Notes: generated by a model from the sequence alone, not told the origin. Numbered from the stretch's first letter, positions 28,074 to 54,388 are shown. The stretch is DNA of 61,148 nucleotides from Bacilli bacterium (GCA_016296945.1 JAEDHQ010000001.1:1-61148); one strand, 5' to 3'. Translations and numbers: made by a program.

Positions 28074-28080
28074 AACCCAC

Positions 28081-28905: not shown

Positions 28906-28914
28906 AATTTATAC

Positions 28915-29433: not shown

Positions 29434-29518
29434 CTCTTCTTATCTTTTAAATTATATCAAATATTAACGCTAAAAGCAACATAAAACTCATACCAAAAGG
29501 TATGAGTCTCTATTTTTA

Positions 29519-36603: not shown

Positions 36604-36621
36604 AAATTAACACTCCTTTTC

Positions 36622-37047
36622 TTACTTAATTATTTTCCTTATATAATGCTTTATTTTTCGAAAAATTCTATTTCTTACTCTTTTCTTATAATACCTAATA
36701 TATTCTTTATTATCATTGCTTACATATGTTTCCCCACGATAAAAACCATCTACAACACCAATTATCATCTCATCAGTAACATTATATTCTTTTATAAATT
36801 GATTATCACCACATAAGACATAACTATCTTTTTTAACCCCAATTATTCGATGCAAAACATAAGTTTTATCTTTACGCTGATAAAGGATGACATCATATTT
36901 TTTAAGTCTTTTCGTTGGTTTAACTAATCTAACTGTATCAAGTCTTTGCCTAATCATTGGCATCATACTTGTCCCAATTGGTGTTGCAATATAATAACCA
37001 TTTTTTTCTATTAATTCTTTATATGAAATACTATTCAAGAATACCAC
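36622..37047 (-). CDS. Small soluble S26-family (signal-peptidase-like) serine peptidase with an apparent Ser/His dyad. It uses a GTG start.
   Basis: Box B GTSMMPMI. Box D YVLHRIIGV, with His where bacterial SPase I has the catalytic Lys (as in SipW/Sec11). Box E LCGDNQ. No TM anchor. The GTG start overlaps the PqqD gene end by 17 nt. Confidence 0.5.
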   Translation of the reverse strand: MVFLNSISYKELIEKNGYYIATPIGTSMMPMIRQRLDTVRLVKPTKRLKKYDVILYQRKDKTYVLHRIIGVKKDSYVLCGDNQFIKEYNVTDEMIIGVVDGFYRGETYVSNDNKEYIRYYKKRVRNRIFRKIKHYIRKIIK

Positions 37048-37297
37048 TCTTTTCTAATTTTTCAATAAATTGATTAATATGTTTGCTTGCTTCACTTTCT
37101 AAAACATCATATTCTGCTAGCATCTTCTTTAGTAATTCTTCCTTTTCAATTCCTTCAGCCAAATTCTTCCATAAGAATGCTCCCGTTTCATTTAAGGTAA
37201 TCATTCCTTTAAATTGCAAACTTGCTTTTCCAACAGGAACTACTGCATAACTTCCTGCAACTTCACGTAACATAAAACCTTCTTTTATTTTAATCAT
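37031..37297 (-). CDS. PqqD-family protein (RiPP precursor-peptide recognition element, RRE)
   Basis: 88 aa. ...ITLNETGAFLWKNLAEGIEKEELLKKMLAEYDVLESEASKHINQFIEKLEKSGILE is a near-textbook match to the PqqD consensus (LNeTGafIW ... YdV ... fl..L...gli). Its ATG overlaps the upstream gene's stop as ATGA. Confidence 0.75.
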   Translation of the reverse strand: MIKIKEGFMLREVAGSYAVVPVGKASLQFKGMITLNETGAFLWKNLAEGIEKEELLKKMLAEYDVLESEASKHINQFIEKLEKSGILE

Positions 37298-38472: not shown

Positions 38473-39353
38473 GGCAACCATCCACTATCAACATTTTCAG
38501 TATATTCATAATTATCTAAAAAAGAGAAGTCACAGATAATTTCATTTTCATCTTTTGTTAATTCATATTTTTGCGCATTGATTGTAAAAAAGTTATTAGT
38601 ATAAATACATATGTTATTATTATTAGATTCAATCTTATATAACATTGTTTGTAAATCTGGATCGAAATCAGCTTCGATAAAATATATTTTTTTAATCTTT
38701 GCAAGAAATTCTTCTACTTCTTCGGTTTCTTCAAGTTTTTTAGATTTATTAATTTCTTTTCTTATTATTGTAATCTTTGAACCAAATAACTCTAAATCCG
38801 TAAATGACATTTTATTTTTAGGTAGTACTGTAACATTAATAATTAAATTTATTATTGGGTAATCTTTTAAATATAAATTTATTGTAGTTGAACCTTCTTG
38901 TAAAGCAATAATTTTATTTCCTTCTACCACACAAATTTTATCATCATTTACTTCTACAATTATCTCTAAATCGTTTGTTGCTTGAATATTGAATTCTTGT
39001 ACTTCGTCTACTTTTAATTCATAGTTTAAATTATCGCTTGTGATTTCTAAACTGCTTATTACTGTTACATTTATAGTTTCATTAATACTTGAATCACTAA
39101 TTAGAAATAATGTGATTTCACAACTTCCTGTTTTATATGCTTTAATTATTCCATTCTTAAAAATTGCCACTTCTGGATTACTATTAGCTGCAATAACTGT
39201 TTCATTAGCTGATACTTCATATCTTATCTTGACTTCTTCGCCAACTTCTAATGTTATTTTTTTATCTTCTTCTTGCAAATTAAGATATTTTTCTTCTTTA
39301 CAAGAAATTAAAAAACTTAATAAGCACAAAATAACTATTAATAATTTCTTCAT
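38463..39353 (-). CDS. Lipoprotein with two Big_2 (bacterial Ig-like) domains
   Basis: Lipobox FLISC. Big_2-like blocks (TLEVGEEVKI...NPEVAIFKNGIIKAYKTGSCEITL and a second copy). AGGAGA RBS. Confidence 0.55.
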   Translation of the reverse strand: MKKLLIVILCLLSFLISCKEEKYLNLQEEDKKITLEVGEEVKIRYEVSANETVIAANSNPEVAIFKNGIIKAYKTGSCEITLFLISDSSINETINVTVISSLEITSDNLNYELKVDEVQEFNIQATNDLEIIVEVNDDKICVVEGNKIIALQEGSTTINLYLKDYPIINLIINVTVLPKNKMSFTDLELFGSKITIIRKEINKSKKLEETEEVEEFLAKIKKIYFIEADFDPDLQTMLYKIESNNNNICIYTNNFFTINAQKYELTKDENEIICDFSFLDNYEYTENVDSGWLPWV

Positions 39354-39463: not shown

Positions 39464-40900
39464 TTATATTTCTTTTATTTTATATTTATTTGTTTCATCA
39501 CTTGTTTCATATAATTTGACATCACTTACAAAATTTCTTCTTTCATCAAGAATTGTAATTAGATGAGTAACATCAATCCATGTTACATTAATTAAAGAGA
39601 AGTAATTTAAGATATCAAACAACGCACGTTTACCATCTTCTGCAAATGTTGATTGGAAAATCTCATTTATAATTACTAGGGATTTATCATTTACTTTATC
39701 GATTATTTCTTTAATATCGATTACTTCTTTTTCGAAACGACCGCCAACATCTGTATCTTTTTCTTCTCCTGAAAAGATTGTCGTAACGCTTTCTTTAATT
39801 TCCACTTTTGCTTGATCACAAGCTACAAATAATCCATTTTGGAAAAAGATTTGGTTAATTCCGATTGTTCTTAGTAAGACTGTTTTTCCGGTATTATTAG
39901 ATCCAACCACTAAAACACTTTGCTTATTAGCAATTGAGATATTATTTCCATATATAGGAGCAGAATATCCTTCGATAATATATTTCATTGAAAGGTATAT
40001 ATCTTTGGCATTTTTATAATCTGTCTCTTTTGCGATTTCAGGAAAAGAACAATCAATTTTTCTTTCACCTAATGAATCATATAAAGAATTTGCAAATTCA
40101 AAGAAAATAAATTCATCACTAAAATAGCTTATTTCATCATAAAGACTTTCATAAATATCTTCTACAATTACAACAACACGATTAAATGAATCAATCACAA
40201 TTCGTGAAAAATCATCTTTTACTTTTGGATTAATTTCAATCTTGCCGTCACTTCTTTCTTTTTTTCTAAATATACTTACCTTTTCACTAGTATATTTACC
40301 ACTGCATAATATAAACTTATTATCAATTGGCATTAATTTATCATCAAGATTAGTATAAAACGCAAAAGCAGAATGTTGTTCAATTATTTCTTTAATCACT
40401 TTTTGAAGTTTTTTAAAATAAACATTTTCAATTCGGTTATTGATTTTCTTTGCTAACTCTTTTAATCCAACTGATGAAGGAGAGTATGTTACAAATAATT
40501 CATTTAAGCGAATATATATTTCAATTAGTTTATTAATATCTTGAGCATAATCTTTAAGCATCATCGTTGTCTCAGAAATCTCCATTTCGGATTTAACTTT
40601 CAATTTTGCACGACTAGAACGGGTAGCATTATAATCACTATAGCATTTATTAAGATTAAATGATTCCCGACCTAACCCATAATAAAGACTGCGATTATAC
40701 ATCATATCACGCATTACACTTTGACGATATTTAATTGTTTCTTCATCAGTACAAATACTACCTAAAATATCTAATATTTTTTCTTGTTTTCCTTTATCAA
40801 CAAAGACATAGCGAACAATTGAATCTATTTGAAGATCGTGTAATGCATTGTTGACGGATCCGATTTTTTCCTTACCAAATGGATATAATAAACTACTCAT
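39464..40900 (-). CDS. MutS-family domain-V ABC-ATPase protein, paralog B (no mismatch-recognition domain I, no Smr)
   Basis: Walker A/MutS signature VLVVGSNNTGKTVLLRTIGINQIFFQNGLFVACDQAKV (compare MutS GPNMGGKSTYMRQ..LAQ.G.FVPA). Walker B region VIINEIFQSTFAEDG (compare MutS LDELGRGTSTYDG) has N-E instead of D-E. 478 aa. Confidence 0.68.
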   Translation of the reverse strand: MSSLLYPFGKEKIGSVNNALHDLQIDSIVRYVFVDKGKQEKILDILGSICTDEETIKYRQSVMRDMMYNRSLYYGLGRESFNLNKCYSDYNATRSSRAKLKVKSEMEISETTMMLKDYAQDINKLIEIYIRLNELFVTYSPSSVGLKELAKKINNRIENVYFKKLQKVIKEIIEQHSAFAFYTNLDDKLMPIDNKFILCSGKYTSEKVSIFRKKERSDGKIEINPKVKDDFSRIVIDSFNRVVVIVEDIYESLYDEISYFSDEFIFFEFANSLYDSLGERKIDCSFPEIAKETDYKNAKDIYLSMKYIIEGYSAPIYGNNISIANKQSVLVVGSNNTGKTVLLRTIGINQIFFQNGLFVACDQAKVEIKESVTTIFSGEEKDTDVGGRFEKEVIDIKEIIDKVNDKSLVIINEIFQSTFAEDGKRALFDILNYFSLINVTWIDVTHLITILDERRNFVSDVKLYETSDETNKYKIKEI

Positions 40901-42395
40901 TACCTTTCTTCCTTTCTAATAATTGTTGTTTTGTTAAACCGTGTTTATACAAAATATCATCGACATATGATAATAACTGTTTTTCTACTTTCTTTATTTT
41001 GTGTGTTCTTATATTAGATTTTCCTTCCATTACTACCGGTGTAAAAAAACCAATTCTCGAATCATGAATTTCCTCAAAAATTTTATATTGATGCGTTACA
41101 TACATTACTTTAGCTTGGGTATTACCAATATCATTAAGTAATTGTTTTGTATAAACGCACGCTTTTTCTTCACTAGTTGATGAAAATGTTTCATTTAAAA
41201 AAGCAATAGAATCGGGTCCGAAATGAGATTTAATTATATCAAGACGTTTAATTTCATCACGAAGACGTCCTTCACCAAAACTATAGTTTTCTTCATTTGG
41301 AAAATGTGTACATATATATTTTACAGGATATACTTTAGCACTTTTTGCAAACATATACCCACAAGTCATAAAGTATACATAATTTGCCCCAATACTACGA
41401 AGATAACAAGTTTTACCACCACTATTAACTCCTAAAACAAAAGATATATTTTCTTTCCCATCAATATAGAAATCATTAGGAATAACATCAATTTTACTTA
41501 CTGTTAAACTAACATCATATGCATCTGTAATTGAAGTTTTGTTTTCTTCATTCACCACTACCTTACAAAAAGGAATACCTTGTTTATTAACTTTTGTAAA
41601 CATTGTTTTTAAACTTAATAAATATTTAAATTCACTAACTAAGCTACTTAAATCAGTTACTTTTTGATGATTTGATTCGTAAAATTCAGCAATTTTTTCA
41701 TAAGTTGTTTTATCTTGTAAAGATATCTCATATAAAAAATATGGATTTACTTCTTTTTTCATAATTTGACGAGGGGTTTTAACTAATTCAATATTTAATC
41801 CTTTTACAATATCTAATAATTCATCTTCTAAATTAGTTTTTTTATCAAAAGTGATTTTATAATATGGTGCCCCTTCATGAAATTCCGCATTAAATTCAAA
41901 ATGACTTGTAATATAATCATATAAATTTTTTACTTCATTTCTTAAAGTTTTTACTTCATTATCATCGAAAATGCTATCAATTTTTACAATTAAATCAGTT
42001 AATCCTTTTGATTTTACATTTAATTTTATTAACACATCTTTTGTAATTGTTAGGAATTGATAATAATGATATATATACATTATTAAAAATATACGTCTTT
42101 TGATGTTTTCGGTTGCTTCTCTTAAAGAAATAAAGCGACCAACTAAATCAGTTAAACGATAATATAAATTTTCTAATAAACCATCCTTATCATTTAATAA
42201 ATCTTCAAAAATTCCTTGCCGATATAATAATGATTCTTTTGATGGAATAAGTTTCATAATTTCTTGCATTTCATCAACATCACTGTAATTATCAAAACAA
42301 CATTCTAATAATTTTGTTATTTTTAAATCGCTAAAGACTGCATCATCTAATTTACTAACTGCTTCATCATTTTTCCATAATAAACTAAAGGCCAT
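40893..42395 (-). CDS. MutS-family domain-V ABC-ATPase protein, paralog A
   Basis: Walker A/MutS signature ISFVLGVNSGGKTCYLRSIGANYVYFMTCGYMFAKSAKV. Walker B region IAFLNETFSSTSEEK, also N-E. 500 aa. AAAGGAGGA RBS and a TGaTATACT extended -10 upstream. 8-nt overlap with paralog B. Confidence 0.68.
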   Translation of the reverse strand: MAFSLLWKNDEAVSKLDDAVFSDLKITKLLECCFDNYSDVDEMQEIMKLIPSKESLLYRQGIFEDLLNDKDGLLENLYYRLTDLVGRFISLREATENIKRRIFLIMYIYHYYQFLTITKDVLIKLNVKSKGLTDLIVKIDSIFDDNEVKTLRNEVKNLYDYITSHFEFNAEFHEGAPYYKITFDKKTNLEDELLDIVKGLNIELVKTPRQIMKKEVNPYFLYEISLQDKTTYEKIAEFYESNHQKVTDLSSLVSEFKYLLSLKTMFTKVNKQGIPFCKVVVNEENKTSITDAYDVSLTVSKIDVIPNDFYIDGKENISFVLGVNSGGKTCYLRSIGANYVYFMTCGYMFAKSAKVYPVKYICTHFPNEENYSFGEGRLRDEIKRLDIIKSHFGPDSIAFLNETFSSTSEEKACVYTKQLLNDIGNTQAKVMYVTHQYKIFEEIHDSRIGFFTPVVMEGKSNIRTHKIKKVEKQLLSYVDDILYKHGLTKQQLLERKKGNE

Positions 42396-44051: not shown

Positions 44052-44073
44052 GATTAAAAACACATTAGAAATT
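44052..44073 (-). terminator. Terminator ending the cit-hydrolyase-pduO operon
   Basis: cacattagaa-att-tctaatgtg followed by TTTTT on the minus strand. Confidence 0.5.
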
Positions 44074-44559
44074 CTAATGTGCTTCATAAAATAACGCTAA
44101 TTCATAAAAAAATGTTGATAACTTATTTAAATATTCAAATATTGTGTTTTGCCCACCATATTTTTCATATACTTTTGCATATCTTCTTTCACAAGTTCGG
44201 GCATGTGTTCTCACAATATGAATTTTTGCACTTAGTAATGTTTGTCCAGGCAAAACAAATTCTTTGAGGATTGGTTGTGATGTTTTATATTTTTTTATCA
44301 ATTCTAAAATTGATTCAATATATTTAACTTCAAACTCTTTTTTAACACCAGCAACTAGCCCCATAATATAAGATAGTGTTTTTACAATTTCTTTTAATTC
44401 ATCAGCTAATTCTTTATCTTTAATATAATGTGTTAGTTCCATAATATAACTACTCAACATGTCTGTTTCCCCAAAAAATTCAATTCGTTCATCACATTTT
44501 GTAGTCATTGTTCCAACTAAGGCTGTATCTAGTGGTTTTTCTTTAATTATGCTTTTCAT
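44074..44559 (-). CDS. PduO-type ATP:cob(I)alamin adenosyltransferase-family protein (Cob_adeno_trans)
   Basis: C-terminal LKEFVLPGQTLLSAKIHIVRTHARTCERRYAKV...IFEYLNKLSTFFYELALF matches the family consensus FiLPGG...a.LHvARtvcRRAER...YLNRLSD.LF. 161 aa. Overlaps the hydro-lyase beta gene by 17 nt. Confidence 0.6.
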   Translation of the reverse strand: MKSIIKEKPLDTALVGTMTTKCDERIEFFGETDMLSSYIMELTHYIKDKELADELKEIVKTLSYIMGLVAGVKKEFEVKYIESILELIKKYKTSQPILKEFVLPGQTLLSAKIHIVRTHARTCERRYAKVYEKYGGQNTIFEYLNKLSTFFYELALFYEAH

Positions 44560-45106
44560 ACATCTTTACACCTTCTTGATACAAATCATTTCCATATGCA
44601 TCATATGTCACAATTGTATAAAAATCTTCTACTTCTAATCTTCTTAATGCTTCAGCTCCTAAATCTTCATAAGCTACTAAATCACATTTTTTAATACTTT
44701 CAGAAATTGATGCTGCAGCACCACCTATAGTTGACAAATATACACATTTGTATTTGACAAGTTGCTCTTTATATTCATCACTTCGTGAACCTTTACCAAT
44801 CATAATTTTCAGTCCTTGTTGCATCAGCTTTTCTGAATATGGATCCATTCTATAACTAGATGTTGGACCTGCGGAACCGATTACTCTACCTGGTTTTGCT
44901 GGAGTTGGGCCTACATAATAAATAGCCCCATTAGTAAAATCAACAGGCAATTCTAATCCTTTATCAATTAATTCCACAAATCTTTTATGAGCAGCATCCC
45001 TAGCTGTATATATAACTCCTGTTAGGTATACTACATCACCAGCACGTAATTTCAAAATAACTTCTTCGTCTTCTTTTGTTATTGGAACATTTAATTTATA
45101 CTCCAT
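44543..45106 (-). CDS. Fe-S hydro-lyase, tartrate/fumarate family, beta subunit (class I fumarate hydratase / mesaconase / L(+)-tartrate dehydratase beta)
   Basis: 187 aa. GVIYTARDAAHKR...YYVGPTPAKPG..GSAGPTSS typical of FumB/TtdB C-terminal-domain proteins. Confidence 0.85.
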   Translation of the reverse strand: MEYKLNVPITKEDEEVILKLRAGDVVYLTGVIYTARDAAHKRFVELIDKGLELPVDFTNGAIYYVGPTPAKPGRVIGSAGPTSSYRMDPYSEKLMQQGLKIMIGKGSRSDEYKEQLVKYKCVYLSTIGGAAASISESIKKCDLVAYEDLGAEALRRLEVEDFYTIVTYDAYGNDLYQEGVKMYEKHN

Positions 45107-45115
45107 ACCTCACCT

Positions 45116-45955
45116 CTATAATTCACAACTCTTATGACGATTAGCATGACATTGAATATTTATAGCAACAGGTAAACTAGCAATGTGACATGGAAAACAG
45201 TTCACCTTAACAGCAAGGCATGTAGTTCTTCCTCCAAATCCCATTGGACCAATTCCTAGATTATTTACTTCTTCTAATAACTCTTTTTCTAATTTATTAG
45301 CATATGGATCACTTGCTTCATCATCTATTTCACGCATTAACGCTTCTTTAGCTAATAATGCAGCTTTTTCTAAATCGCCACCAATTCCTAAACCTATAAT
45401 TATTGGAGGACATGGTTTACCACCTGCATATCGGACTGTGTCTAAAACCAATTTTTTTATTCCTTCAACCCCATCTGCAGGAATTAACATTTTAACTAAA
45501 CTCATATTTTCACTGCCGCCACCTTTTGGAGCAACTGTAATTTTAAACGTATCACCGACAACGCTTTTAATATGAACTATTGCAGGCGTATTATTTTTAG
45601 TATTTATGCGATTTAACGGGTGCTCAACAACTGATTTACGTAAATAACCATTAATATAAGCATTACTAACACCTTGATTTATTGCTTCGTAGATATCTCC
45701 TTTAAAAATAACTTCTGAACCAATTTCTAAAAAACATACTACAATTCCTGTATCTTGACACATTGGCAAGTTTTGTTTCATTGCCAATTTATCATTTTCA
45801 ATGATTTTACTTAATATTTCTTTTCCTAATTCTGATTCTTCTCTTTCTTTAAATTCGTTTAAATAATCTAAAAATTTACATCCGATATTGCTGCAAGCAT
45901 CTAATAATAACTCTTCGACTTTTTTAGTAACTAATTTTAAATCTATTTCACGCAT
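45116..45955 (-). CDS. Fe-S hydro-lyase, tartrate/fumarate family, alpha subunit
   Basis: 279 aa. Conserved cysteines (CQDTG..., CPPIIIGLGIGG, C...CH) of the class I fumarase/TtdA catalytic domain. Confidence 0.85.
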   Translation of the reverse strand: MREIDLKLVTKKVEELLLDACSNIGCKFLDYLNEFKEREESELGKEILSKIIENDKLAMKQNLPMCQDTGIVVCFLEIGSEVIFKGDIYEAINQGVSNAYINGYLRKSVVEHPLNRINTKNNTPAIVHIKSVVGDTFKITVAPKGGGSENMSLVKMLIPADGVEGIKKLVLDTVRYAGGKPCPPIIIGLGIGGDLEKAALLAKEALMREIDDEASDPYANKLEKELLEEVNNLGIGPMGFGGRTTCLAVKVNCFPCHIASLPVAINIQCHANRHKSCEL

Positions 45956-45965
45956 ATTTCCACCA

Positions 45966-47261
45966 TTAAATATAATTTAAATATTTTTTTAAGAAAATAA
46001 CAGTTATTAAAATATCACATGCTCCTCCAACACTGATATTTTCTTTAATACAATAGTTATTAACATTTATTAACTTTTCTTTAGAGTCAATATTTTTAAT
46101 CATTTCTTTTACATTTTGATATTTTTCAATACTTCCACATCTTTTAAACATTACAGTATCATCAATAACATCTATTATTCCTATCAAACATCGCTCTAAA
46201 TTTTCTTCGTTTATTTCATTTAACTCTTTAGTCCAATTCTTTACTATCGTTAATCCATCAATTGCTTGATGTCGAGCTCCTTTTAAATTATAACTTTTAA
46301 ATGCCTTTAACCCGTGAGTAAGGTTATGACTTATATAATCATCATTTAATTCATCTCTTAATGGCTTAGCCATTTCTTTTACATTTTTAAATATTTCTTC
46401 TATATAATACTCTTTATCTATAGTATGATTATTATTTTTTATTGTAAATCCAATTGAAGCAACTAATAAACCTAAAATAAAGATTAATCCTTTATAACAA
46501 TTTACACCTTTTGTTTCTTGATACATTGCTTGTTCTGCTTCAATTCCAAGTAATCTAATCTTTTTAAATATTTCATTTAAACTACTATCTGTAAATCCAA
46601 TATTAAACATCTTTACAAGATATGGAATAATTGCTTTTTTTGCATTACGCATTATTAAGGCATTCATATCATGATGAGATCCATTATCATTTATGCAAAC
46701 ACAACCAAATTTATAAGGCAGATTAAGTTCTATTTCCATTGCTTCATCGATTGTTTTTTTTAAAAGATCATCTAATCTAAAAAGTATCATCTCATCCATT
46801 TTTTTAAAAATTTCTTTATCAGTATGGATTTTCTTGCGGTTGCAAACAAAAGCATCATCATCACATAATAAACATTTTCTAAGTTTTTGTCTTTTAATGC
46901 TTCCATGATTATCAAGATGAACATCAAGATCTATTAATCTTCCTAATGGGTCTTCCTCTTCAATTGCAATTGTTAGCTCTTTTAAATTTCTAATTAAACC
47001 TTTTGGATAACTAAAAATAATATATGGACCATCATTAGATGTATAAGTTGTAGAATTAATGTGTCCTTTAATCCTATCTTCAATTATTTTTTTAAAATAA
47101 TTAAGTAAAAAATAACTTTCAAAAACATTTTTATCAATTCCTACAATATTAGCCTTTACTACAACAAGATCATAATATTTAATTAATTGGTCAATCTTAA
47201 TCCTTTTTTCTTCACGGTCCTTTAGGATATCTAAAACTTGTTTTTCCATTATTTTACCCAT
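45966..47261 (-). CDS. citXG: Bifunctional CitX-CitG fusion: apo-citrate-lyase phosphoribosyl-dephospho-CoA transferase plus triphosphoribosyl-dephospho-CoA synthase
   Basis: The N-terminal about 170 aa is CitX-like. The C-terminal part carries CitG motifs (INDNGSHHDMN, GVNCYKGLIFILGLL). 431 aa. Overlaps citC by 8 nt. Confidence 0.72.
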   Translation of the reverse strand: MGKIMEKQVLDILKDREEKRIKIDQLIKYYDLVVVKANIVGIDKNVFESYFLLNYFKKIIEDRIKGHINSTTYTSNDGPYIIFSYPKGLIRNLKELTIAIEEEDPLGRLIDLDVHLDNHGSIKRQKLRKCLLCDDDAFVCNRKKIHTDKEIFKKMDEMILFRLDDLLKKTIDEAMEIELNLPYKFGCVCINDNGSHHDMNALIMRNAKKAIIPYLVKMFNIGFTDSSLNEIFKKIRLLGIEAEQAMYQETKGVNCYKGLIFILGLLVASIGFTIKNNNHTIDKEYYIEEIFKNVKEMAKPLRDELNDDYISHNLTHGLKAFKSYNLKGARHQAIDGLTIVKNWTKELNEINEENLERCLIGIIDVIDDTVMFKRCGSIEKYQNVKEMIKNIDSKEKLINVNNYCIKENISVGGACDILITVIFLKKYLNYI

Positions 47262-48276
47262 TATTTTTTAAGTATTTATCTTTAGCTGTTTTTGCCATTT
47301 GATAAAATAACATTCGCGATCCTTTTGGTACTAATAAAGATGCTTCTTCAATCTTTCCTTCTAAAATCATCTTACGAACTATACTTGCACTTACTTCAAT
47401 ACCATTTTCTTGATATCTTTTAATTTCTTCGACTTTATTTCCTAGAATATTTTTTAACGCCTTATTATATTCTACCATCATTTTATTAGATTCTGTTCCT
47501 ATATAACGTTTGGAAATATTTAAATATTTCATAAAATATTCTTTGAATATTTTGGCATCAGTTGTTGCCCATTCTTTATTTTTCATTTCTTCATTTCTTA
47601 AAAAATAATTTGGAAAAGTTAAACTAGAAACAATATAACTAGAAGATGGAATAACAACAACATTTGGCAAATGATTACAAGCTAAATATAATAGTGTCAT
47701 TCGTTCTTTATAACTAAAGAAAGATAAATCTTCTTCTAAAATAAATACTAAAACATATTGATGTCTTTTGGCGGCTAATTCAATTAATTCTAGGTGGCCA
47801 ATTGTAACTGGATTGCAATTCATAACTAAGCATCCAATATCTGCATTATTAACGTTTATATCGAACTTATACTCAATTTTGTGCTTTAAAGATTCTAAAT
47901 ATTCTATAATATTAGGTGTTCCTGCTTCTAAAATACAAACAGTGTCAGTTTCAACTATTTTCTCAAATCCAAAACTCATAAATGTGTTTAAATATTCTAA
48001 TTTTGTATATACCAAATAATGATATATTTTATTTTCATAGAAATAATTTACTACTTTACTAATTAAAATTCCTCCATAATTCTCATTACGATTATCTATA
48101 TCTACGGCAAAACATTTAATAATATTTTGATAAATTGAAACTGTTCCTAAAATAGCATCATTTTCTTCAATATAAAATGTTTTTGTAATATTATCTTCAT
48201 AATCTAATTCATTTCTCTTTAAAAATTTTATTATTCTTTCTTTTTCACTTAATAGTAAAGCTTCTTTTATTTCCAT
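47254..48276 (-). CDS. citC: [Citrate (pro-3S)-lyase] ligase (ACP acetylation)
   Basis: Cytidylyltransferase-like core NPVTIGHLELIE (HxGH). N-terminal acetyltransferase-like domain. 340 aa. Confidence 0.8.
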   Translation of the reverse strand: MEIKEALLLSEKERIIKFLKRNELDYEDNITKTFYIEENDAILGTVSIYQNIIKCFAVDIDNRNENYGGILISKVVNYFYENKIYHYLVYTKLEYLNTFMSFGFEKIVETDTVCILEAGTPNIIEYLESLKHKIEYKFDINVNNADIGCLVMNCNPVTIGHLELIELAAKRHQYVLVFILEEDLSFFSYKERMTLLYLACNHLPNVVVIPSSSYIVSSLTFPNYFLRNEEMKNKEWATTDAKIFKEYFMKYLNISKRYIGTESNKMMVEYNKALKNILGNKVEEIKRYQENGIEVSASIVRKMILEGKIEEASLLVPKGSRMLFYQMAKTAKDKYLKNNG

Positions 48277-48294
48277 AATATAAACCTTTATTTT

Positions 48295-49809
48295 TTATTT
48301 TTTATAAATATGATCAATTATTGTACCATCTCGATACATTACCTCACCAACAATTTGATCTGTATGATGTGATGGTTTTGGTTTTCCTGTATAGTGATGA
48401 GCAATTTCTAATAGTTCAGATATTGTACAAATATTTAGTTTTGAACCCTTTACTTTTTCAAGTAAATCTTTTCTTCGTGGATTAATTGCTATTCCCCGTT
48501 CACACACTAAAACATCGATATCACTTCCAGGAGTTGTAATTGTTGTTACATGTTCTTTGATAATTGGCATTCTTGATTTTACTAAATTTGTTACAATGAC
48601 AGTAACATTGGCTCCATTAGCTGTGTCAGAATGACCACCGCTACCTCCGATAACATTACCATGTGAATCAGTTGTAACGTTGACATTGAAATCCAAATCG
48701 ATTTCTGTTGCTCCTAAAATAACAAAATCAAGTTTGTTTACAATAACATTTTCATCATATGGATTAGCATACATTGAAGCTGACATTCCATGATGATTGC
48801 GATTTTCTTTATATGACCTTACAGCATCTAAATCGAAGCATTGCACATCATAAATGTCTTTAAGCAAACCATCTTCTAACATCTTTACAAAATAACTTGT
48901 AATTCCTCCTGTTGCGAAACTGCCTTTAATATTTTTTTCTTCCATTAATTTACGAACATAATAAGCAACAGCAAGTGATGTTCCCCCAGCTCCCGTTTGC
49001 ATTGAAAAACCATCTTTAATTAAACCTATTTCATCTAATAATTTTACTGTATCTCTGGCTATTTTTAATCCGGTTGGATCCTTTGTTATTTTTGTTGTTC
49101 CACTAACAATTCCTTTAGCATCACCAATTGCTTGTACTTGACAAACAATATCAACATACTTTCCATCAATATCGTATTGATCTAATTTTTCAATCACATT
49201 ATCAGTAACTAAAACTACTTTATTTGCATATAAACTATCAGGAATTGCATAACCTAATGAACCACAGGCAACAGGTCCCATTGCTCCTGTTCCATTAGCA
49301 CACTTGTCAACTGTAGGTGTTGCAAGAAACGCAACATCTATTTTTATTTCTCCACTTTCAATCGAACGCGCACGACCACCATGCGTGTTCATTATTAGTT
49401 CACCTTTTAATTTTCCACTCACAATTGCATCACTAACAGGGCCATTTAAATAGTTTGTATAAATGTTTGTAACATTTCCATTTTCAATTAATTCCACTAA
49501 CGGTTTATTATTCGGAAAAATAGAACTTGCAGCGATTGATAAATTCTTTATATTTCTTTTTTTGATTACTTTACAAACATCATTTAAAACGTAATCTCCG
49601 TTTCGTAAGTGATGGTGGAAAGAAAGACACATTCCATCTGTAATATTTAAAAAGTCAAACACATCTTCTAAGCTTTTAAGCCATATAGTGTTATCTGCTT
49701 TATTCTTTTTATCAATTAATTTTCGAGGATGATTTTTATAATCTTCACTATTGATAAAAGTTTTGTATTTTCTAATTCCATTGTTTTTATCCATTTTAAA
49801 GAACTCCAA
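48295..49809 (-). CDS. citF: Citrate lyase alpha subunit (citrate CoA-transferase)
   Basis: 504 aa. CitF-type CoA-transferase with conserved G-rich blocks. Confidence 0.85.
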   Translation of the reverse strand: MEFFKMDKNNGIRKYKTFINSEDYKNHPRKLIDKKNKADNTIWLKSLEDVFDFLNITDGMCLSFHHHLRNGDYVLNDVCKVIKKRNIKNLSIAASSIFPNNKPLVELIENGNVTNIYTNYLNGPVSDAIVSGKLKGELIMNTHGGRARSIESGEIKIDVAFLATPTVDKCANGTGAMGPVACGSLGYAIPDSLYANKVVLVTDNVIEKLDQYDIDGKYVDIVCQVQAIGDAKGIVSGTTKITKDPTGLKIARDTVKLLDEIGLIKDGFSMQTGAGGTSLAVAYYVRKLMEEKNIKGSFATGGITSYFVKMLEDGLLKDIYDVQCFDLDAVRSYKENRNHHGMSASMYANPYDENVIVNKLDFVILGATEIDLDFNVNVTTDSHGNVIGGSGGHSDTANGANVTVIVTNLVKSRMPIIKEHVTTITTPGSDIDVLVCERGIAINPRRKDLLEKVKGSKLNICTISELLEIAHHYTGKPKPSHHTDQIVGEVMYRDGTIIDHIYKK

Positions 49810-50644
49810 ACTTTTTCGCTTTTTCTAATACTTTTTCAGCTCTTTCAATAACTGGTTTATCAACCATTTTACCATCTAAACTAAAAACTCCTAATCCTTT
49901 GGCAAATGCTTCATCACGAGCCATTAAAACTCGTTTTGCATAATCAACTTCTTTTGTTGTTGGCGTAAAGATCTGATTGATTGTCTCAATTTGATTGGGA
50001 TGAATCGCACTTTTTGCATTCATACCAATACTTTTTGCAAATTTTGTATCTTTTGTTAATCCCTCATTATCAGTAGTATCAGTAAATGGTGTATCAATTG
50101 CATCTATTTTATATGCTTTACAAGCAGTTACAATGCGATTGCGAGCATAAAAAATCTCTACTCCTTCTTTCGTTCTTGTTACTTCTAAATCTTTAGTAAA
50201 GTCTTCAGCTCCTAATAATATCCCATCAACAAGTTCCAGTTTTGCAATTTGATCTACTTCTATTAATGATATTGCTTGTTCGATAATTGGGATAATCTTA
50301 ATATCTTTTTTGTTATTTTTAATCATTTCAGATAATTGTAATAAGTCTTCAACTCTTGCTTTAGGTAACATAATCGTATTCAAGTTATCAAGCATAAATA
50401 AGGCCTTTAAATCTTCTGCGCAAAAAGGTGTGTCAAATCCATTAATGCGAACTATTACTTCTAAAGATGGGGAATAGTTTTTTAAATAACTTGTGACTAA
50501 AAATCTTGCGCTGTCTTTTTCTGTTCCACTAACTGCATCTTCTAAATCAAAAATCACAGCATCAGCTTCAAAAACATCACTACTTTGTAACATCCCTGGA
50601 TTATTTCCAGGAATAAATAATAAACTACGTCTCATTTTATTCAC
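49796..50644 (-). CDS. citE: Citrate lyase beta subunit (citryl-CoA lyase)
   Basis: MRRSLLFIPGNNP...FDLEDAV, the HpcH/HpaI/CitE family N-terminus. 282 aa. Confidence 0.85.
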   Translation of the reverse strand: MNKMRRSLLFIPGNNPGMLQSSDVFEADAVIFDLEDAVSGTEKDSARFLVTSYLKNYSPSLEVIVRINGFDTPFCAEDLKALFMLDNLNTIMLPKARVEDLLQLSEMIKNNKKDIKIIPIIEQAISLIEVDQIAKLELVDGILLGAEDFTKDLEVTRTKEGVEIFYARNRIVTACKAYKIDAIDTPFTDTTDNEGLTKDTKFAKSIGMNAKSAIHPNQIETINQIFTPTTKEVDYAKRVLMARDEAFAKGLGVFSLDGKMVDKPVIERAEKVLEKAKKFGVL

Positions 50645-50924
50645 CTAAATATCTTTCTATTGCGCATAATAGTCTTGCTTTTATCGTGTAATCAAGAGCG
50701 CCTTTGTCTGTACATTCTACTAAGACATTATTAAGATTTTTTTCTTTTAAAGTAATAGCAATAACTTCATATATTTGTTCATAAAAGAAGTCACCTACGA
50801 TACTATTTATAATAATGTGATTCCCATTTTCTTTATTATTTTTAATTACAATTAAACAATCATTAGACTCAATCGATCCACACATACCTATTTTCATTTT
50901 CATCACCTTTTCCTTCTTCTTCAA
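50637..50924 (-). CDS. citD: Citrate lyase acyl carrier protein (gamma subunit)
   Basis: 95 aa. MCGSIESND prosthetic-group serine region. First gene of the operon. Confidence 0.8.
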   Translation of the reverse strand: MKKKEKVMKMKIGMCGSIESNDCLIVIKNNKENGNHIIINSIVGDFFYEQIYEVIAITLKEKNLNNVLVECTDKGALDYTIKARLLCAIERYLGE

Positions 50925-51080
50925 TTTTCATTATAACATAAGAGCCTCTTTTTTTCAATTAATATACTATTAATTTTAATAGCTTATTTTTTTATTTATA
51001 ATTGTTATTAATTATTAACTCATAATTTTTTAATTTGCAATTAAGAATAAAACACGATTAATTTTCTTAACCGTGTTTTT

Positions 51081-51974
51081 TTATAAACTAAAAATAATAA
51101 TAACTAGAATGCCTAAAGTTAATAAAATCAATCCTAAAATAGATTTTTTGTTAAACTTTTCTTTTAGAATCAAAAAAGAAAATAACATTGTTATTAATAT
51201 CGAGAATTTACCAATTGAGTTAACAGCAACAGGATTAACATTATCTAGATTTAAAGCAAAATATTCACTTAGCCACGCTCCCCCAGTAGCAATCCCAGAA
51301 ATCACTAAAAAAACATAACTCTTTAATGATATTTTTGTAGCTCCTTTATAATCTTTTCTAAACAAAACAATTGTAATGGAAAAAATAAACACAACAATTG
51401 TTCTAATTAATGTTCCTAAGCCAGAACTAATTCCTTTTAAACCTATTTTTATAAATAAAGATACCAAAGAAGCAAAAACAGCTGATAGAATGGCATATAT
51501 TAGCCAACTACTATTTTTCTTATCCTCTTCATTCTTTTTATCAATCATTAAAAGAGTTCCCAAAAGCATTAGAATCATTGATAATGATAGTGCAAGAATA
51601 GTTTTCATATCTCCATTATTTGTTGTATCATTAAAAAAGAATATTATAAATAAAATACTTGTAATAATGAAACTTGATTTATCAATTGCGACTACTTTAT
51701 TAGTGCTTCCTAATTTTAATGCTTTATAATAACATAACCAAGAACAACCTGTAGCAATTCCCGACAATATTAAAAATAACCAGTTATTCCTGTTTATACT
51801 GCCAATATCATTGATACTTCCGGAAATAACACATAATAATAATGAAAATATAATTACTACACCTGTTCTAAATGCTGTTGCAAAATTTGAATTTACATCT
51901 TTAATTCCGATTTTTGTAAAAATGGTTGATAAAGATGTGCATACTGCACCTATTAATGCTATCATTAACCACAT
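51081..51974 (-). CDS. EamA/DMT-superfamily transporter (10 TM)
   Basis: 297 aa. Two EamA-like 5-TM repeats. Confidence 0.68.
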   Translation of the reverse strand: MWLMIALIGAVCTSLSTIFTKIGIKDVNSNFATAFRTGVVIIFSLLLCVISGSINDIGSINRNNWLFLILSGIATGCSWLCYYKALKLGSTNKVVAIDKSSFIITSILFIIFFFNDTTNNGDMKTILALSLSMILMLLGTLLMIDKKNEEDKKNSSWLIYAILSAVFASLVSLFIKIGLKGISSGLGTLIRTIVVFIFSITIVLFRKDYKGATKISLKSYVFLVISGIATGGAWLSEYFALNLDNVNPVAVNSIGKFSILITMLFSFLILKEKFNKKSILGLILLTLGILVIIIFSL

Positions 51975-52105: not shown

Positions 52106-54388
52106 ATGTCATTAGATGATTTAATTATTAAGAGTAATGGTGCTAGAAAAGAGATTTTTGATAAAGAAGAAAATTGTAGTGATTATCGTTTTAAAAATAA
52201 GCATGTTTATGAGAAATTAGTAATTTTTGATAGTAAAAATTTTTCAAGTTGTACACTTAATGGCCGTGGTTCTATTTCTTTAAGCAGTAAATATACGAAA
52301 ACAAATCCTTTTGCTTTATGTTTATCCACAAGTACTGATATTGAAAATATTACTCCAAGACCTTCATCTTCATTAAGATTTGCTCTTAATGGGCTTAATT
52401 TAGAAAAATATAACCGAATATCTGCGCTTTGTTATATTGAAGCAACTGGTTATCAAAATTTTTATTTTCATTTCGCTTTTGGAAATGACGGGCATCATAC
52501 AAACCATGCTCCAAGCATCTATCCTAACCAATGGACATATGTGACTTGGGAATGCAATCATATCAAACGGGACAATGTTAACTTAATGACTGTTACACCA
52601 TATTTAATGGGTTGTCCACCTGAAGCATTACCTAATATCAATATATACATTGATAATATTTCAGCGGAGGTTGTTGATTTAGAATATGATCTTGGTTGGG
52701 ACTTAGAAGATCGTATAGCTTACTCTCATGTTGGTTATTTACCAATAAGTAAAAAACAGGCTTTTAGTTCAACTTGCAATTCTGATTATTTTACTATTGT
52801 TAACGAAGATACTTTAAAATCTATTAGAATGAAAGTAAAAGAACTAAATAGTAATTTAGGCCATTTTTATCTCTTTGATTTTTCCTCAATTAATGAAATA
52901 GGCAATTATCATTTAGAAGTTGATAATCGTAAAACTGAATCCTTTATGATTGATTTTGTCTGCTATGACTCTTCAATTTGGAAAAGTTTAAACTTCTTGC
53001 GTTCATTAAGATGTGGGGAAGATGTAGAAGGAGTTCATTCTGCTTGTCATTTAAATTGTCGTTCAGTTCATCCTGATGGTAGAACAGTTCCAACATTTGG
53101 TGGTTGGCATGACGCTGGTGATGTTTCTCAATTTGAAATTTGTACTGCAGAAATGGCGCATGCGATTTGTGATCTTGCCCTTAAAAATAAAGCTGACTCA
53201 TTTATGTTTAATCGTCTTTTAGAAGAAGCAAAAGTCGGATTGAACTGGCTTTTACGTACTCGCTTTGGTGATGGTTACCGTGCTAATGCTGTTGGTTATA
53301 GCATTTGGAGAAAAAATACATTAGATCCAACTAATACTTCTATTATTAGCAAAGCTGAAGAAGGATCATTTGAAAACTTTTTATCTGCTGCTGCTTTAGC
53401 AAGTGGTGCTAATTTGTTTAAAGATCTTGATATTATATATAGTGATTGGTGTAAACGTAGTGCTATTGAGGATTTCAAATTTGCATGTTCAGAATATCTT
53501 AATAAAATTTATACTGTTCGTTGGGGTGAACCTATTGAAAGCCAAACTATGGGGGCTGCTATTTTAGCTGCTTGTGAAATATATGTGATTACAAATGATA
53601 TATTTTATTTAGAAAAAGCTTTAGAGTTTTCTAAAATTGTTATGAATTGCCAAGAAAAAGGTAATGATACTCCGATGAAAGGCTTTTTCTATGAAGATCA
53701 AGAACATAAATATATTTTAGCTTATGAACATCGCGGCCATGAGCAATCTCCTGTTCAAGGACTTGCTCGTTTATATCAACTACTTCCAAATGGTGATAAT
53801 AAAGATAAAATCAAAAAATCTTTAGAATTATATCGTAGCTATGTTTTAGAATCAATGAAATATACAAAACCATATAATCTACTTCCTGGTCACATTTATC
53901 ATATTGATAAAATCAATATTGAACACTTTACAGTTTTCCCAAAAACAGCAAAACTTGAAGCATTACAATCATTAATTGCTCAAGTTAAAGAGGGAATTGA
54001 TTTAGGTAATGGTTGGTATCTTCGTATTATGCCAATTGCTTATACAAGACGCGGTTTTCATGCTACGTTATTAAGTAAAGCAAAAGGCGTAAGTATGATT
54101 GCTAAAGTATTTAATGATACTGAATTGAGAAATATTGTGATCAGTCAATTAGAATGGATTTTAGGTAAAAACCCATTTGCCTCTAGTACAATGTATGGAG
54201 AAGGTCATAATTACCATCCATTATATGTTGCCTTTTCACGCCAAATAGTTGGTGCCCTACCTGTAGGTATTAAGACAAAAGATGAAAAAGATTTACCATA
54301 TTGGCCAACAATTAATAATGCTGTTTATAAAGAGATATGGGGCCATACTACTGGTAAATATCTTTGGGTTTTAGCGGACGTATTATAA
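52106..54388 (+). CDS. Glycoside hydrolase family 9-like protein (cytoplasmic, N-terminal Ig-like domain)
   Basis: GGWHDAGDVSQFEICTAEMAHAI (the GH9 DAGD catalytic-Asp motif). C-terminal NAVYKEIWGHTTGKYLWVLA (the GH9 catalytic Glu region). No signal peptide. Confidence 0.6.
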   Translation: MSLDDLIIKSNGARKEIFDKEENCSDYRFKNKHVYEKLVIFDSKNFSSCTLNGRGSISLSSKYTKTNPFALCLSTSTDIENITPRPSSSLRFALNGLNLEKYNRISALCYIEATGYQNFYFHFAFGNDGHHTNHAPSIYPNQWTYVTWECNHIKRDNVNLMTVTPYLMGCPPEALPNINIYIDNISAEVVDLEYDLGWDLEDRIAYSHVGYLPISKKQAFSSTCNSDYFTIVNEDTLKSIRMKVKELNSNLGHFYLFDFSSINEIGNYHLEVDNRKTESFMIDFVCYDSSIWKSLNFLRSLRCGEDVEGVHSACHLNCRSVHPDGRTVPTFGGWHDAGDVSQFEICTAEMAHAICDLALKNKADSFMFNRLLEEAKVGLNWLLRTRFGDGYRANAVGYSIWRKNTLDPTNTSIISKAEEGSFENFLSAAALASGANLFKDLDIIYSDWCKRSAIEDFKFACSEYLNKIYTVRWGEPIESQTMGAAILAACEIYVITNDIFYLEKALEFSKIVMNCQEKGNDTPMKGFFYEDQEHKYILAYEHRGHEQSPVQGLARLYQLLPNGDNKDKIKKSLELYRSYVLESMKYTKPYNLLPGHIYHIDKINIEHFTVFPKTAKLEALQSLIAQVKEGIDLGNGWYLRIMPIAYTRRGFHATLLSKAKGVSMIAKVFNDTELRNIVISQLEWILGKNPFASSTMYGEGHNYHPLYVAFSRQIVGALPVGIKTKDEKDLPYWPTINNAVYKEIWGHTTGKYLWVLADVL

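What the first reader, a model, noticed from the sequence alone, without database searches (positions are those of the whole stretch)
44074..50924. Citrate-lyase-type operon fused to a two-subunit class I Fe-S hydro-lyase and a PduO-type B12 adenosyltransferase: possible citramalate lyase/mesaconase module of the methylaspartate pathway
citD-citE-citF-citC-citXG are followed, with overlaps of 8-17 nt, by the alpha and beta subunits of a tartrate/fumarate-family Fe-S hydro-lyase and a Cob_adeno_trans protein. A terminator ends the unit at 44052-44073.

Established knowledge:
- Citramalate lyase has the same ACP/alpha/beta architecture and prosthetic group as citrate lyase.
- Mesaconase is a class I fumarase-family enzyme.
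- The upstream step of glutamate fermentation, glutamate mutase, needs adenosylcobalamin.

The B12 adenosyltransferase is unexplained by citrate or tartrate fermentation but fits a methylaspartate pathway: mesaconate to citramalate to pyruvate plus acetate. The alternative is a combined citrate plus tartrate (or fumarate) module producing oxaloacetate.
Basis: inference. Interest (0 to 1): 0.55.

Follow-up and report, generated by a model that had tools for sequence, protein, structure and literature searches.

The report
Citramalate lyase–mesaconase operon for glutamate fermentation
This eight-gene operon looks like citrate lyase plus fumarase, but it most likely runs the last two steps of B12-dependent glutamate fermentation (mesaconate to citramalate to pyruvate plus acetate), an arrangement already described in other anaerobes, so it is a sound but ordinary finding.

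Summary
Eight tightly packed minus-strand genes (44074-50903) encode CitD, CitE, CitF, CitC, a CitX-CitG fusion, the two subunits of a class I Fe-S hydro-lyase, and a PduO-like protein. A strong promoter lies upstream and a hairpin downstream.

- Of the 80 closest CitE relatives in species-representative genomes, 71 of 77 assessable loci have methylaspartate ammonia-lyase next to citD.
- 47 of 49 loci with enough upstream DNA carry the full glmS-mutL-glmE-mal set.
- True citrate lyases (E. coli, E. faecium) are only 36-44% identical to the window proteins. They pass the NCBIfam citE cut-off (452-470 bits against 443); the window CitE (273) and glm-linked CitE (271-316) fail it.
- The 61 kb window holds no citrate carrier or oxaloacetate decarboxylase.

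Glutamate mutase and methylaspartase are also absent from the window. I could not test whether they lie elsewhere in this genome. This split layout is conserved in sister species and was described for Treponema denticola in 2015.

The one unusual feature is the PduO-like protein. Its whole subfamily lacks the canonical N-terminal TxGDxGxT ATP loop, yet it models confidently as an ATP-bound PduO fold.

Verdict: a new member of a known kind, of low to moderate interest.

The parts
50930..50958 (-). Sigma-70-type promoter TTGAAA-17-TATAAT with a TG extension, upstream of citD
   Evidence: 11 of 12 matches, TG present; sequence read.
50637..50903 (-). citD-like acyl carrier protein (gamma subunit, 88 aa); the prosthetic-group serine lies in the conserved ESND motif
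   Evidence: Pfam ACP 72 bits. NCBIfam citD 66 bits against a cut-off of 63.5. Called as 88 aa on Logan contigs. ES[NS]D aligns with E. faecium CitD.
49796..50635 (-). citE-like beta subunit; proposed (S)-citramalyl-ACP lyase
   Evidence: HpcH_HpaI 164 bits. TIGR01588 citE 273 bits against a cut-off of 443; true CitE scores 452-470 and glm-linked CitE 271-316. Best PDB match is RipC 3QLL. 71 of 77 nearest homologues lie next to mal.
48295..49794 (-). citF-like alpha subunit; proposed acetyl-ACP:citramalate ACP-transferase
   Evidence: Pfam CitF 499 bits. TIGR01584 542 bits against 811-817 for true CitF and 549 for glm-linked L019. 41-44% identical to true CitF and 50-70% to glm-linked ones.
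47254..48276 (-). citC-like acetate:SH-lyase ligase, which activates the ACP thiol by acetylation
   Evidence: Citrate_ly_lig 168 bits. TIGR00124 218 bits, below the 262 cut-off.
45966..47261 (-). citX-citG fusion: holo-ACP synthase plus triphosphoribosyl-dephospho-CoA synthase, which build and attach the prosthetic group
   Evidence: CitX (residues 10-159) and CitG (residues 172-424) on one 431-aa protein.
45116..45955 (-). mesA: alpha subunit of a two-subunit class I Fe-S hydro-lyase; proposed mesaconase (it may also act as a fumarase)
   Evidence: Fumerase 371 bits. NF004885 394 bits against a cut-off of 276; TtdA 172 against 365. Three invariant Cys (66, 182, 269) across 28 orthologues. 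Orthologues sit inside glm-mal-cit clusters.
44543..45106 (-). mesB: beta subunit of the same hydro-lyase
   Evidence: Fumerase_C 190 bits. NF005310 254 bits against a cut-off of 238; TtdB 102 against 264.
44074..44559 (-). PduO-like protein with a non-canonical N-terminus; proposed ATP:cob(I)alamin adenosyltransferase supplying glutamate mutase
   Evidence: Cob_adeno_trans 95 bits. TIGR00636 89 bits, below the 108.45 cut-off. TxGDxGxT loop absent in 120 of 120 homologues. AF2 model with pLDDT 92.6 matches ATP-bound MMAB 2IDX at TM 0.85. It is the last gene of 15 full glm-mal-cit clusters and of the split operon in L007.
44057..44085 (-). Terminator-like AT-rich hairpin that overlaps the stop codon and runs into a T tract
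   Evidence: -13.6 kcal/mol, z = -6.3, 0 of 200 shuffles fold as well; sequence read.

Best explanation
The operon encodes the lower half of the 3-methylaspartate pathway of glutamate fermentation.

MesAB, a two-subunit [4Fe-4S] class I hydro-lyase, hydrates mesaconate to (S)-citramalate. A citrate-lyase-type complex then cleaves citramalate to pyruvate and acetate:
- CitD is an ACP carrying the 2'-(5''-phosphoribosyl)-3'-dephospho-CoA thiol.
- CitF acts as the acetyl-ACP:citramalate transferase.
- CitE acts as the citramalyl-ACP lyase.
- CitXG builds and attaches the prosthetic group.
- CitC acetylates the thiol.

The last gene is a divergent PduO-type corrinoid adenosyltransferase. It would make adenosylcobalamin for glutamate mutase, which together with methylaspartase is expected to be encoded elsewhere in the genome.

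Shown: gene content, operon structure, orthology to genes embedded in glm-mal clusters, and separation from true citrate lyases.
Inferred: substrate specificity, adenosyltransferase activity, and the presence of glm and mal elsewhere in this genome.
For: - Domains and order.
- Nearest 80 CitE relatives: mal is adjacent to citD in 71 of 77 assessable loci. The full glmS-mutL-glmE-mal set is present in 47 of 49 loci with at least 5.5 kb upstream. The set was Pfam-verified in L019.
- Window CitE/CitF identity is 47-70% to these relatives and 36-44% to E. coli and E. faecium citrate lyases, which sit beside citT or a 2-hydroxycarboxylate transporter.
- NCBIfam calibration: the citE model scores true CitE 452-470 bits, the window 273 and glm-linked CitE 271-316. 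The citF model scores true CitF 811-817, the window 542 and L019 549.
- The RipC/Ccl citramalyl-CoA lyase model scores the glm-linked clade higher (193-204) than true CitE (158-173). RipC 3QLL is the best PDB match.
- MesAB orthologues at 51-79% identity lie in the same clusters.
- Window-type PduO-like genes are the last gene of 15 full clusters. Canonical PduO genes precede glmS in L058, L063, L073 and L085.
- The operon is intact and syntenic in four related species or MAGs: L007, L088, L091 and L093.
- Published precedent: PMC4682846 describes glmSE-mutL-mal-mesAB-citDEF-citCXG clusters and a split layout in Treponema denticola.
Against: - No glmS, mutL, glmE or mal lies in the 61 kb window or next to the operon in any member of this lineage. 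Their presence in the genome is unverified.
- No citramalate lyase gene has been matched to activity at the sequence level. The literature assignment is itself by gene context.
- The PduO-like protein fails the TIGR00636 cut-off and lacks the canonical ATP loop.
- The hydro-lyase passes a 'fumarate hydratase' equivalog model, so sequence alone does not show mesaconase specificity.
Confidence: 0.78

Rival explanations
1. The module stands alone and degrades C5-dicarboxylates. The lineage would have lost, or never had, glutamate mutase and methylaspartase. It would use MesAB plus the lyase on imported mesaconate or citramalate, and the PduO-like protein would have a role unrelated to glutamate mutase.
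For: The split layout without glm and mal is conserved across the lineage. The PduO-like subfamily also occurs without adjacent cit or glm genes in L089, L094 and L095. The PduO-like protein is non-canonical.
Against: Almost all relatives couple these genes to glm and mal. Treponema denticola has the same split layout with glm and mal elsewhere. Keeping a PduO-fold gene in the operon is most simply explained by an adenosylcobalamin enzyme. No dedicated dicarboxylate carrier is conserved beside the operon, since EamA is missing in L091 and L093.
Confidence: 0.13
2. It is a genuine citrate lyase combined with a fumarase or tartrate dehydratase. This would be a citrate plus tartrate or fumarate fermentation module feeding oxaloacetate or malate.
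For: CitF passes the citF equivalog cut-off (542 against 501), CitD passes citD, and the hydro-lyase passes a fumarate hydratase equivalog. Databases would annotate the genes this way.
Against: CitE, CitC, CitX and CitG all fall below their citrate-lyase equivalog cut-offs. True CitE and CitF score far higher. Identity to true citrate lyases is 36-44%, against 47-70% to glm-linked ones. No citrate carrier, oxaloacetate decarboxylase or malic enzyme is in the window, unlike at the E. coli and E. faecium loci. The TtdA and TtdB models score far below cut-off.
Confidence: 0.05
3. The PduO-like protein is not an adenosyltransferase. It would be a cobalamin-handling or other accessory protein that has lost ATP-dependent catalysis, for example a carrier or chaperone, or an accessory of the Fe-S hydro-lyase. 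This rival concerns only the last gene; the rest of the best explanation would stand.
For: None of 120 homologues has TxGDxGxT; they have KxPLxTxL[VI]G instead. All tested members fall below the TIGR00636 cut-off. The subfamily travels with mesAB in a second, cit-free context.
Against: The core motifs FVLPG, RTxxRxxER and YLNKLS are conserved. The model matches ATP-bound PduO and MMAB structures over 157-160 of 161 residues at TM 0.81-0.85, including the N-terminal hairpin. The gene occupies the role taken by canonical PduO in the Izemoplasmatales clusters.
Confidence: 0.3

Closest known systems
Putative citramalate lyase (CitDEF, CitCXG) and mesaconase (MesAB) genes of clostridial glutamate-fermentation clusters (C. 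tetani, C. tetanomorphum and others; Kronen & Berg 2015, PMC4682846)
   Same: The same eight-protein repertoire apart from the adenosyltransferase. Orthologues of every window gene lie in glmS-mutL-glmE-mal-containing clusters, including Caloramator, Tissierella and Clostridiaceae loci.
   Different: Here glm and mal are not adjacent, citX and citG are fused, and a PduO-like gene is added at the 3' end.
Treponema denticola arrangement: class I fumarase genes together with citrate-lyase-type genes, with glm and mal elsewhere (PMC4682846)
   Same: The same split layout: a lyase plus hydro-lyase operon that is separate from glutamate mutase and methylaspartase.
   Different: It is a different phylum. 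I could not check whether T. denticola has a PduO-like gene there, or whether this genome has glm and mal at all.
Citrate lyase CitDEF with CitC, CitX and CitG (E. coli K-12 b0613-b0618; E. faecium plasmid locus)
   Same: The same ACP/alpha/beta architecture, prosthetic-group machinery and Pfam families.
   Different: Only 36-44% identity. Window CitE scores 273 bits against 452-470 on TIGR01588. There is no citrate carrier or malic enzyme nearby.
(S)-citramalyl-CoA lyases RipC/Ccl (Yersinia pestis, PDB 3QLL) and human CLYBL (5VXC)
   Same: They are the best solved-structure matches to window CitE (E = 3.6e-40 and 5.6e-37). The expected chemistry is the same: citramalyl thioester to pyruvate plus acetyl thioester.
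   Different: These are free-standing CoA-dependent enzymes without the ACP and transferase subunits. The RipC_Ccl model scores 204 bits, below its 375 cut-off.
PduO-type ATP:cob(I)alamin adenosyltransferases (L. reuteri PduO, human MMAB, B. cereus PduO)
   Same: The same fold, at TM 0.81-0.85 to ATP-bound structures. The motifs FVLPG, RTxxRxxER and YLN(K/R)LS are conserved.
   Different: The N-terminal TxGDxGxT loop is replaced by KxPLxTxL[VI]G throughout the subfamily. The protein scores below the TIGR00636 trusted cut-off.
Enterobacterial glutamate-fermentation cluster with FumD mesaconase and CobA adenosyltransferase (E. coli O157:H7; PMC4682846)
   Same: It is a precedent for a corrinoid adenosyltransferase gene inside a methylaspartate-pathway cluster.
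   Different: The adenosyltransferase is CobA-type rather than PduO-type, the fumarase is a single polypeptide, and the cluster has no citramalate lyase.

Membership tests
Citrate (pro-3S)-lyase, EC 4.1.3.6 (CitDEF) | Three subunits (ACP gamma, beta CitE, alpha CitF) plus the CitC, CitX and CitG accessory genes | tested here: met
   All Pfam families are present in one operon.
Citrate (pro-3S)-lyase, EC 4.1.3.6 (CitDEF) | The beta subunit reaches the NCBIfam citE equivalog cut-off (TIGR01588, 443.4 bits) | tested here: not met
   The window scores 273 bits. E. coli scores 452 and E. faecium 470. Glm-linked L019 scores 271 and L067 scores 316.
Citrate (pro-3S)-lyase, EC 4.1.3.6 (CitDEF) | The alpha subunit reaches the citF equivalog cut-off (TIGR01584, 501 bits) | tested here: inconclusive
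   The window scores 542 bits and so passes. However, glm-linked L019 (549) and L067 (684) pass too, while true CitF scores 811-817. The cut-off therefore does not separate the two clades.
Citrate (pro-3S)-lyase, EC 4.1.3.6 (CitDEF) | Genomic association with a citrate carrier and an oxaloacetate-handling enzyme (OAD or malic enzyme) | tested here: not met
   None is present in the 61 kb window. They are present at the reference loci. The rest of the genome was not seen.
Citramalate lyase, EC 4.1.3.22, of the 3-methylaspartate pathway | Citrate-lyase-type ACP/alpha/beta complex encoded with mesaconase genes | tested here: met
   citDEFCXG is followed directly by mesAB in one transcription unit.
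Citramalate lyase, EC 4.1.3.22, of the 3-methylaspartate pathway | Orthology to the lyase genes that sit beside glutamate mutase and methylaspartase | tested here: met
   71 of 77 nearest relatives have mal adjacent, and 47 of 49 have the full glm-mal set. In the NJ tree the window groups with L006 and L007, next to the glm-linked loci L011, L012 and L030.
Citramalate lyase, EC 4.1.3.22, of the 3-methylaspartate pathway | [quoted passage not shown] | not testable with these tools
   They are absent from the window. The genome accession could not be recovered. A GlmE search returned 7591 hits that could not be attributed to this organism.
Citramalate lyase, EC 4.1.3.22, of the 3-methylaspartate pathway | Cleavage of (S)-citramalate to pyruvate plus acetate | not testable with these tools
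   This needs an enzyme assay.
Two-subunit class I Fe-S hydro-lyase (fumarase/mesaconase) | Fumerase and Fumerase_C domains on separate polypeptides, with three conserved cluster-binding cysteines | tested here: met
   Pfam scores of 371 and 190 bits. NF004885 and NF005310 are above their cut-offs. Cys66, Cys182 and Cys269 are invariant in 28 orthologues.
L(+)-tartrate dehydratase TtdAB | Reaches the TtdA (365 bits) and TtdB (264 bits) equivalog cut-offs | tested here: not met
   The scores are 172 and 102 bits.
PduO-type ATP:cob(I)alamin adenosyltransferase | Cob_adeno_trans helical-bundle fold | tested here: met
   Pfam 95 bits. The AF2 model has pLDDT 92.6 and matches ATP-bound MMAB and PduO structures at TM 0.81-0.85.
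PduO-type ATP:cob(I)alamin adenosyltransferase | Reaches the TIGR00636 PduO_Nterm cut-off (108.45 bits) | tested here: not met
   The window scores 88.9 bits and other subfamily members 90-101. Canonical PduO proteins from glm clusters score 114.
PduO-type ATP:cob(I)alamin adenosyltransferase | N-terminal TxGDxGxT ATP-binding loop. Its role is taken from my own knowledge of the L. reuteri PduO and MMAB structures, not from a tool result. | tested here: not met
   None of 120 homologues has it, and 109 of 120 match P[LFIM]xTx[LI], the core of KxPLxTxL[VI]G, in the first 40 residues. The loop is present in the canonical proteins of L058, L063, L073 and L085.
PduO-type ATP:cob(I)alamin adenosyltransferase | Core active-site motifs (FxLPG, RTxxRRxER, YLNRLS) | tested here: met
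   F101, P104, G105, R117, R121, E124 and N145 are invariant in 39 subfamily members and align with canonical PduO.

The most novel reading that the evidence does not exclude
The PduO-like protein belongs to an undescribed subfamily tied to the methylaspartate pathway and to mesAB. The subfamily has replaced the canonical ATP-binding loop. It may work differently from known adenosyltransferases, for example with an altered nucleotide-binding mode or as an adenosylcobalamin carrier or chaperone for glutamate mutase. Alternatively, it may serve the Fe-S hydro-lyase in lineages whose operon lacks adjacent glm and mal genes.
Probability: 0.2. Interest if true: 0.5.

Novelty: new member of a known kind. 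Interest (0 to 1): 0.27.

Why it matters
Annotation pipelines would label these genes as citrate lyase plus fumarate hydratase. That label wrongly predicts citrate fermentation instead of B12-dependent glutamate fermentation, here in an uncultured low-GC Bacilli lineage recovered from metagenome assemblies.

The comparative set also shows the methylaspartate cluster to be common in MAGs from gut samples (sheep colon, goat cecum, Hadza) and in many Christensenellaceae and Bacilli MAGs. A 2021 review (PMC8473912) treats the pathway as typical of soil clostridia.

The calibrated model scores give a simple rule for separating the two lyases: on TIGR01588 citE, glm-linked proteins score about 270-320 bits and true citrate lyases more than 443.

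The non-canonical PduO-like subfamily is a small, testable lead in cobalamin biochemistry.

Tried and rejected
1. Finding the window's own genome. An exact look-up of PheT found nothing on record. Cluster look-ups show the 61,148-base contig is in NCBI but give no accession. The closest species-representative genome has only 67% CitE identity.

2. Finding the organism's GlmE with the GlmE of the nearest glm-linked relative (L011). The search gave 7591 hits. The top 120 (at least 75% identity) held no candidate with the window's source pattern, so the result is uninformative.

3. Exact look-up of CitF using the TTG start failed because the called start is different.

4. Tartrate dehydratase was rejected on model scores.

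5. An itaconate-type free citramalyl-CoA lyase (RipC) as the family was rejected: the score is 204 bits against a 375 cut-off, and the ACP and transferase subunits are present.

6. EamA as the operon's transporter was rejected. It has its own terminator and is absent in L091 and L093.

7. The ECF S-component at 14161-14850 as a B12 importer has no support; the only matches are weak ones to MPN527 and folate-type models.

8. The DUF4430 gene downstream in Christensenellaceae loci is only a weak hint, at 23.2 bits just below the 23.8 cut-off.

9. The first phylogeny script timed out before the CitF tree was built. Pairwise identity matrices were used instead.

Full report
**Observation**

The minus strand between 44074 and 50924 carries eight consecutive ORFs.
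- ACP (CitD)
- HpcH_HpaI (CitE)
- CitF
- Citrate_ly_lig (CitC)
- a CitX+CitG fusion
- Fumerase
- Fumerase_C
- Cob_adeno_trans

Identical or near-identical genes with the same calls occur on five independent metagenome contigs.

Some details need correcting:
- Overlaps exist only at citC/citXG (8 nt) and mesB/pduO (17 nt). The other junctions are gaps of 1-18 nt.
- An 11-of-12 promoter with a TG extension (50958-50930) ends 6 nt before the TTG at 50924. citD therefore most likely starts at ATG 50903 and is 88 aa long.
- The 3' hairpin lies at about 44057-44085 and overlaps the stop codon (-13.6 kcal/mol, z = -6.3).
- The upstream EamA gene has its own terminator-like hairpin. It is missing at this position in two sister species, so it is not part of the unit.

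**What the lyase is**

NCBIfam places CitE, CitC, CitX and CitG below their citrate-lyase equivalog cut-offs, and CitF only just above its cut-off.

I scanned species-representative genomes with CitE. The best match was only 67% identical, so this species is not among the representatives. I then searched the 80 retrieved loci with tblastn for every operon protein and for GlmS, MutL, GlmE and Mal. Those four queries came from L019, where Pfam confirmed their identity.

The results were clear:
- 71 of 77 assessable loci have methylaspartate ammonia-lyase directly upstream of citD.
- 47 of 49 loci with at least 5.5 kb upstream carry the complete glmS-mutL-glmE-mal set.

For contrast I fetched two citrate lyase loci with citrate-type context. 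One is E. faecium, with a 2-hydroxycarboxylate transporter and malic enzyme. The other is E. coli K-12, with citT.
- Window CitE/CitF are 36-38% / 41-44% identical to these references. They are 47-70% identical to the glm-linked proteins.
- On the citE model, true CitE scores 452-470 bits (cut-off 443). The window scores 273 and glm-linked proteins score 271-316.
- On the citF model, true CitF scores 811-817. The window scores 542 and L019 scores 549.
- A neighbour-joining tree puts the window with L006 and L007, next to the glm-linked loci L011, L012 and L030.
- The best solved-structure match of CitE is RipC (3QLL), which I know to be a citramalyl-CoA lyase. The RipC_Ccl model scores the glm-linked clade slightly higher than true CitE.

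The rest of the window holds housekeeping and glycan-degradation genes. It has no citrate carrier, oxaloacetate decarboxylase or malic enzyme.

**The hydro-lyase**

The two subunits pass the generic two-subunit class I hydro-lyase models and fail the tartrate dehydratase models by a wide margin. Three cysteines are invariant across 28 orthologues. Orthologues at 51-79% identity lie inside glm-mal-cit clusters. Class I fumarases are known to be promiscuous mesaconases. The clostridial two-subunit genes were named mesAB on the same contextual grounds (PMC4682846).

**The PduO-like protein**

It is a real Cob_adeno_trans family member (best PDB match E = 2e-16). An AlphaFold model (pLDDT 92.6) superposes on ATP-bound human MMAB and on bacterial PduO structures at TM 0.81-0.85 over 157-160 of 161 residues.

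Window-type copies (46-54% identical) are the last gene of 15 full glm-mal-cit clusters, most of them in Christensenellaceae MAGs. A 16th copy ends the split operon in L007. In four Izemoplasmatales clusters a canonical PduO lies just upstream of glmS. An adenosyltransferase is therefore a recurrent accessory of this pathway, as CobA is in the enterobacterial cluster.

The window-type subfamily is nevertheless unusual:
- None of 120 homologues has the N-terminal TxGDxGxT loop. They have KxPLxTxL[VI]G instead.
- All tested members score below the TIGR00636 cut-off (89-101 bits against 108.45). The canonical proteins score 114.
- The core motifs are invariant.

The same subfamily also occurs in a second conserved context: mesAB-DUF6305-capB-capC-x-response regulator-histidine kinase-pduO-like, with an Asp/Glu racemase gene nearby (downstream in L089, upstream in L095). 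No cit or glm genes lie within 10 kb there.

**The gap**

The window has no glmS, mutL, glmE or mal. The operon sits in the same chromosomal place (GH9, PHP and LytB on one side; MutS-like genes on the other, preceded by a DUF6512 gene in all but L093) in sister species whose PduO-like proteins are 89%, 78% and 65% identical, and with the same GH9-side neighbours in L007. glm and mal are never adjacent. The split layout is therefore conserved and under purifying selection; MesA, for example, is 81-98% identical across these species.

Kronen and Berg reported the same split in Treponema denticola, with glm and mal elsewhere in the genome. I could not recover the genome accession. I also could not attribute any GlmE hit to this organism. 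This step remains inferred.

**Comparison and verdict**

The system works like, and by orthology belongs with, the putative citramalate lyase and mesaconase genes of methylaspartate-pathway clusters described in 2015. It fails the decisive citrate-lyase membership test (the citE equivalog score) and the tartrate dehydratase tests. It is a new member of a known kind, found in an uncultured low-GC (28%) Bacilli lineage.

Its stated alternative of citrate plus tartrate is unlikely (about 5%). A stand-alone mesaconate or citramalate module without glutamate mutase remains possible (about 13%). The only mildly novel element is the PduO-like subfamily with a non-canonical N-terminus.

Noticed in passing
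window 44074-44559 (-); homologues P0001-P0120: The whole PduO-like subfamily lacks the canonical N-terminal TxGDxGxT loop: none of 120 homologues has it, and they carry KxPLxTxL[VI]G instead. Members score below the TIGR00636 cut-off. Even so, the window protein models as an ATP-bound PduO fold (pLDDT 92.6, TM 0.85 to 2IDX).
   Followed up: partly
L089 2880-11230; L094 2880-11080; L095 1124-10513: The same PduO-like subfamily has a second conserved context: mesAB-like hydro-lyase, DUF6305, CapB-like Mur ligase, CapC, an unknown gene, response regulator, histidine kinase, PduO-like, with an Asp/Glu racemase gene nearby (downstream in L089, upstream in L095). No cit or glm genes lie within 10 kb. 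The context is glutamate-related (poly-gamma-glutamate synthesis and a racemase) but unexplained.
   Followed up: partly
L006-L085 (80 loci from species-representative genomes): Complete glmS-mutL-glmE-mal-citDEFC(XG) clusters are common in MAGs labelled Christensenellaceae, Bacilli, Acholeplasmataceae and Izemoplasmatales, including isolates from sheep colon, goat cecum and Hadza gut samples. Buckel's 2021 review (PMC8473912) treats the 3-methylaspartate route as typical of soil clostridia and the 2-hydroxyglutarate route as the gut pathway.
   Followed up: no
window 35080-39353 (-): A run of genes lies downstream of two MutS_V paralogues (39464-42395): an unknown 296-aa gene with a faint HL_N-beta hit, NTP_transf_5 (37294-38472), a PqqD-like 88-aa gene (37031-37297), a 141-aa protein weakly resembling signal peptidase I, and a Band_7 protein. 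This may be a small peptide-maturation or export cluster. It is conserved in the sister species L088, L091 and L093.
   Followed up: no
L088 6951-9307: In the sister species, a resolvase gene and a TnpB gene (Cas12f1-like_TNB) are inserted immediately downstream of the operon. The DUF6512 gene there is cut to 80 aa.
   Followed up: no
window 10983-11717 (-): This 244-aa ORF matches only the first 65-115 residues of amidohydrolase and dihydroorotase models that are about 430 aa long. It is probably a truncated or degenerate gene.
   Followed up: no
window 51049-51974 (-): An EamA-family transporter lies directly upstream of the operon on the same strand. It is followed by a 13-bp terminator-like hairpin (51079-51049) and is absent at this position in L091 and L093, so it is probably not the pathway's carrier.
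   Followed up: yes
window 26322-32020 and 52106-54388: Several glycan-degradation genes (DUF4838, GHL10, GH9, and a NAGPA-domain protein at 14975-16945) suggest a polysaccharide-degrading lifestyle for this low-GC Bacilli lineage. An ECF S-component (14161-14850) weakly resembles the mycoplasmal MPN527 family.
   Followed up: no
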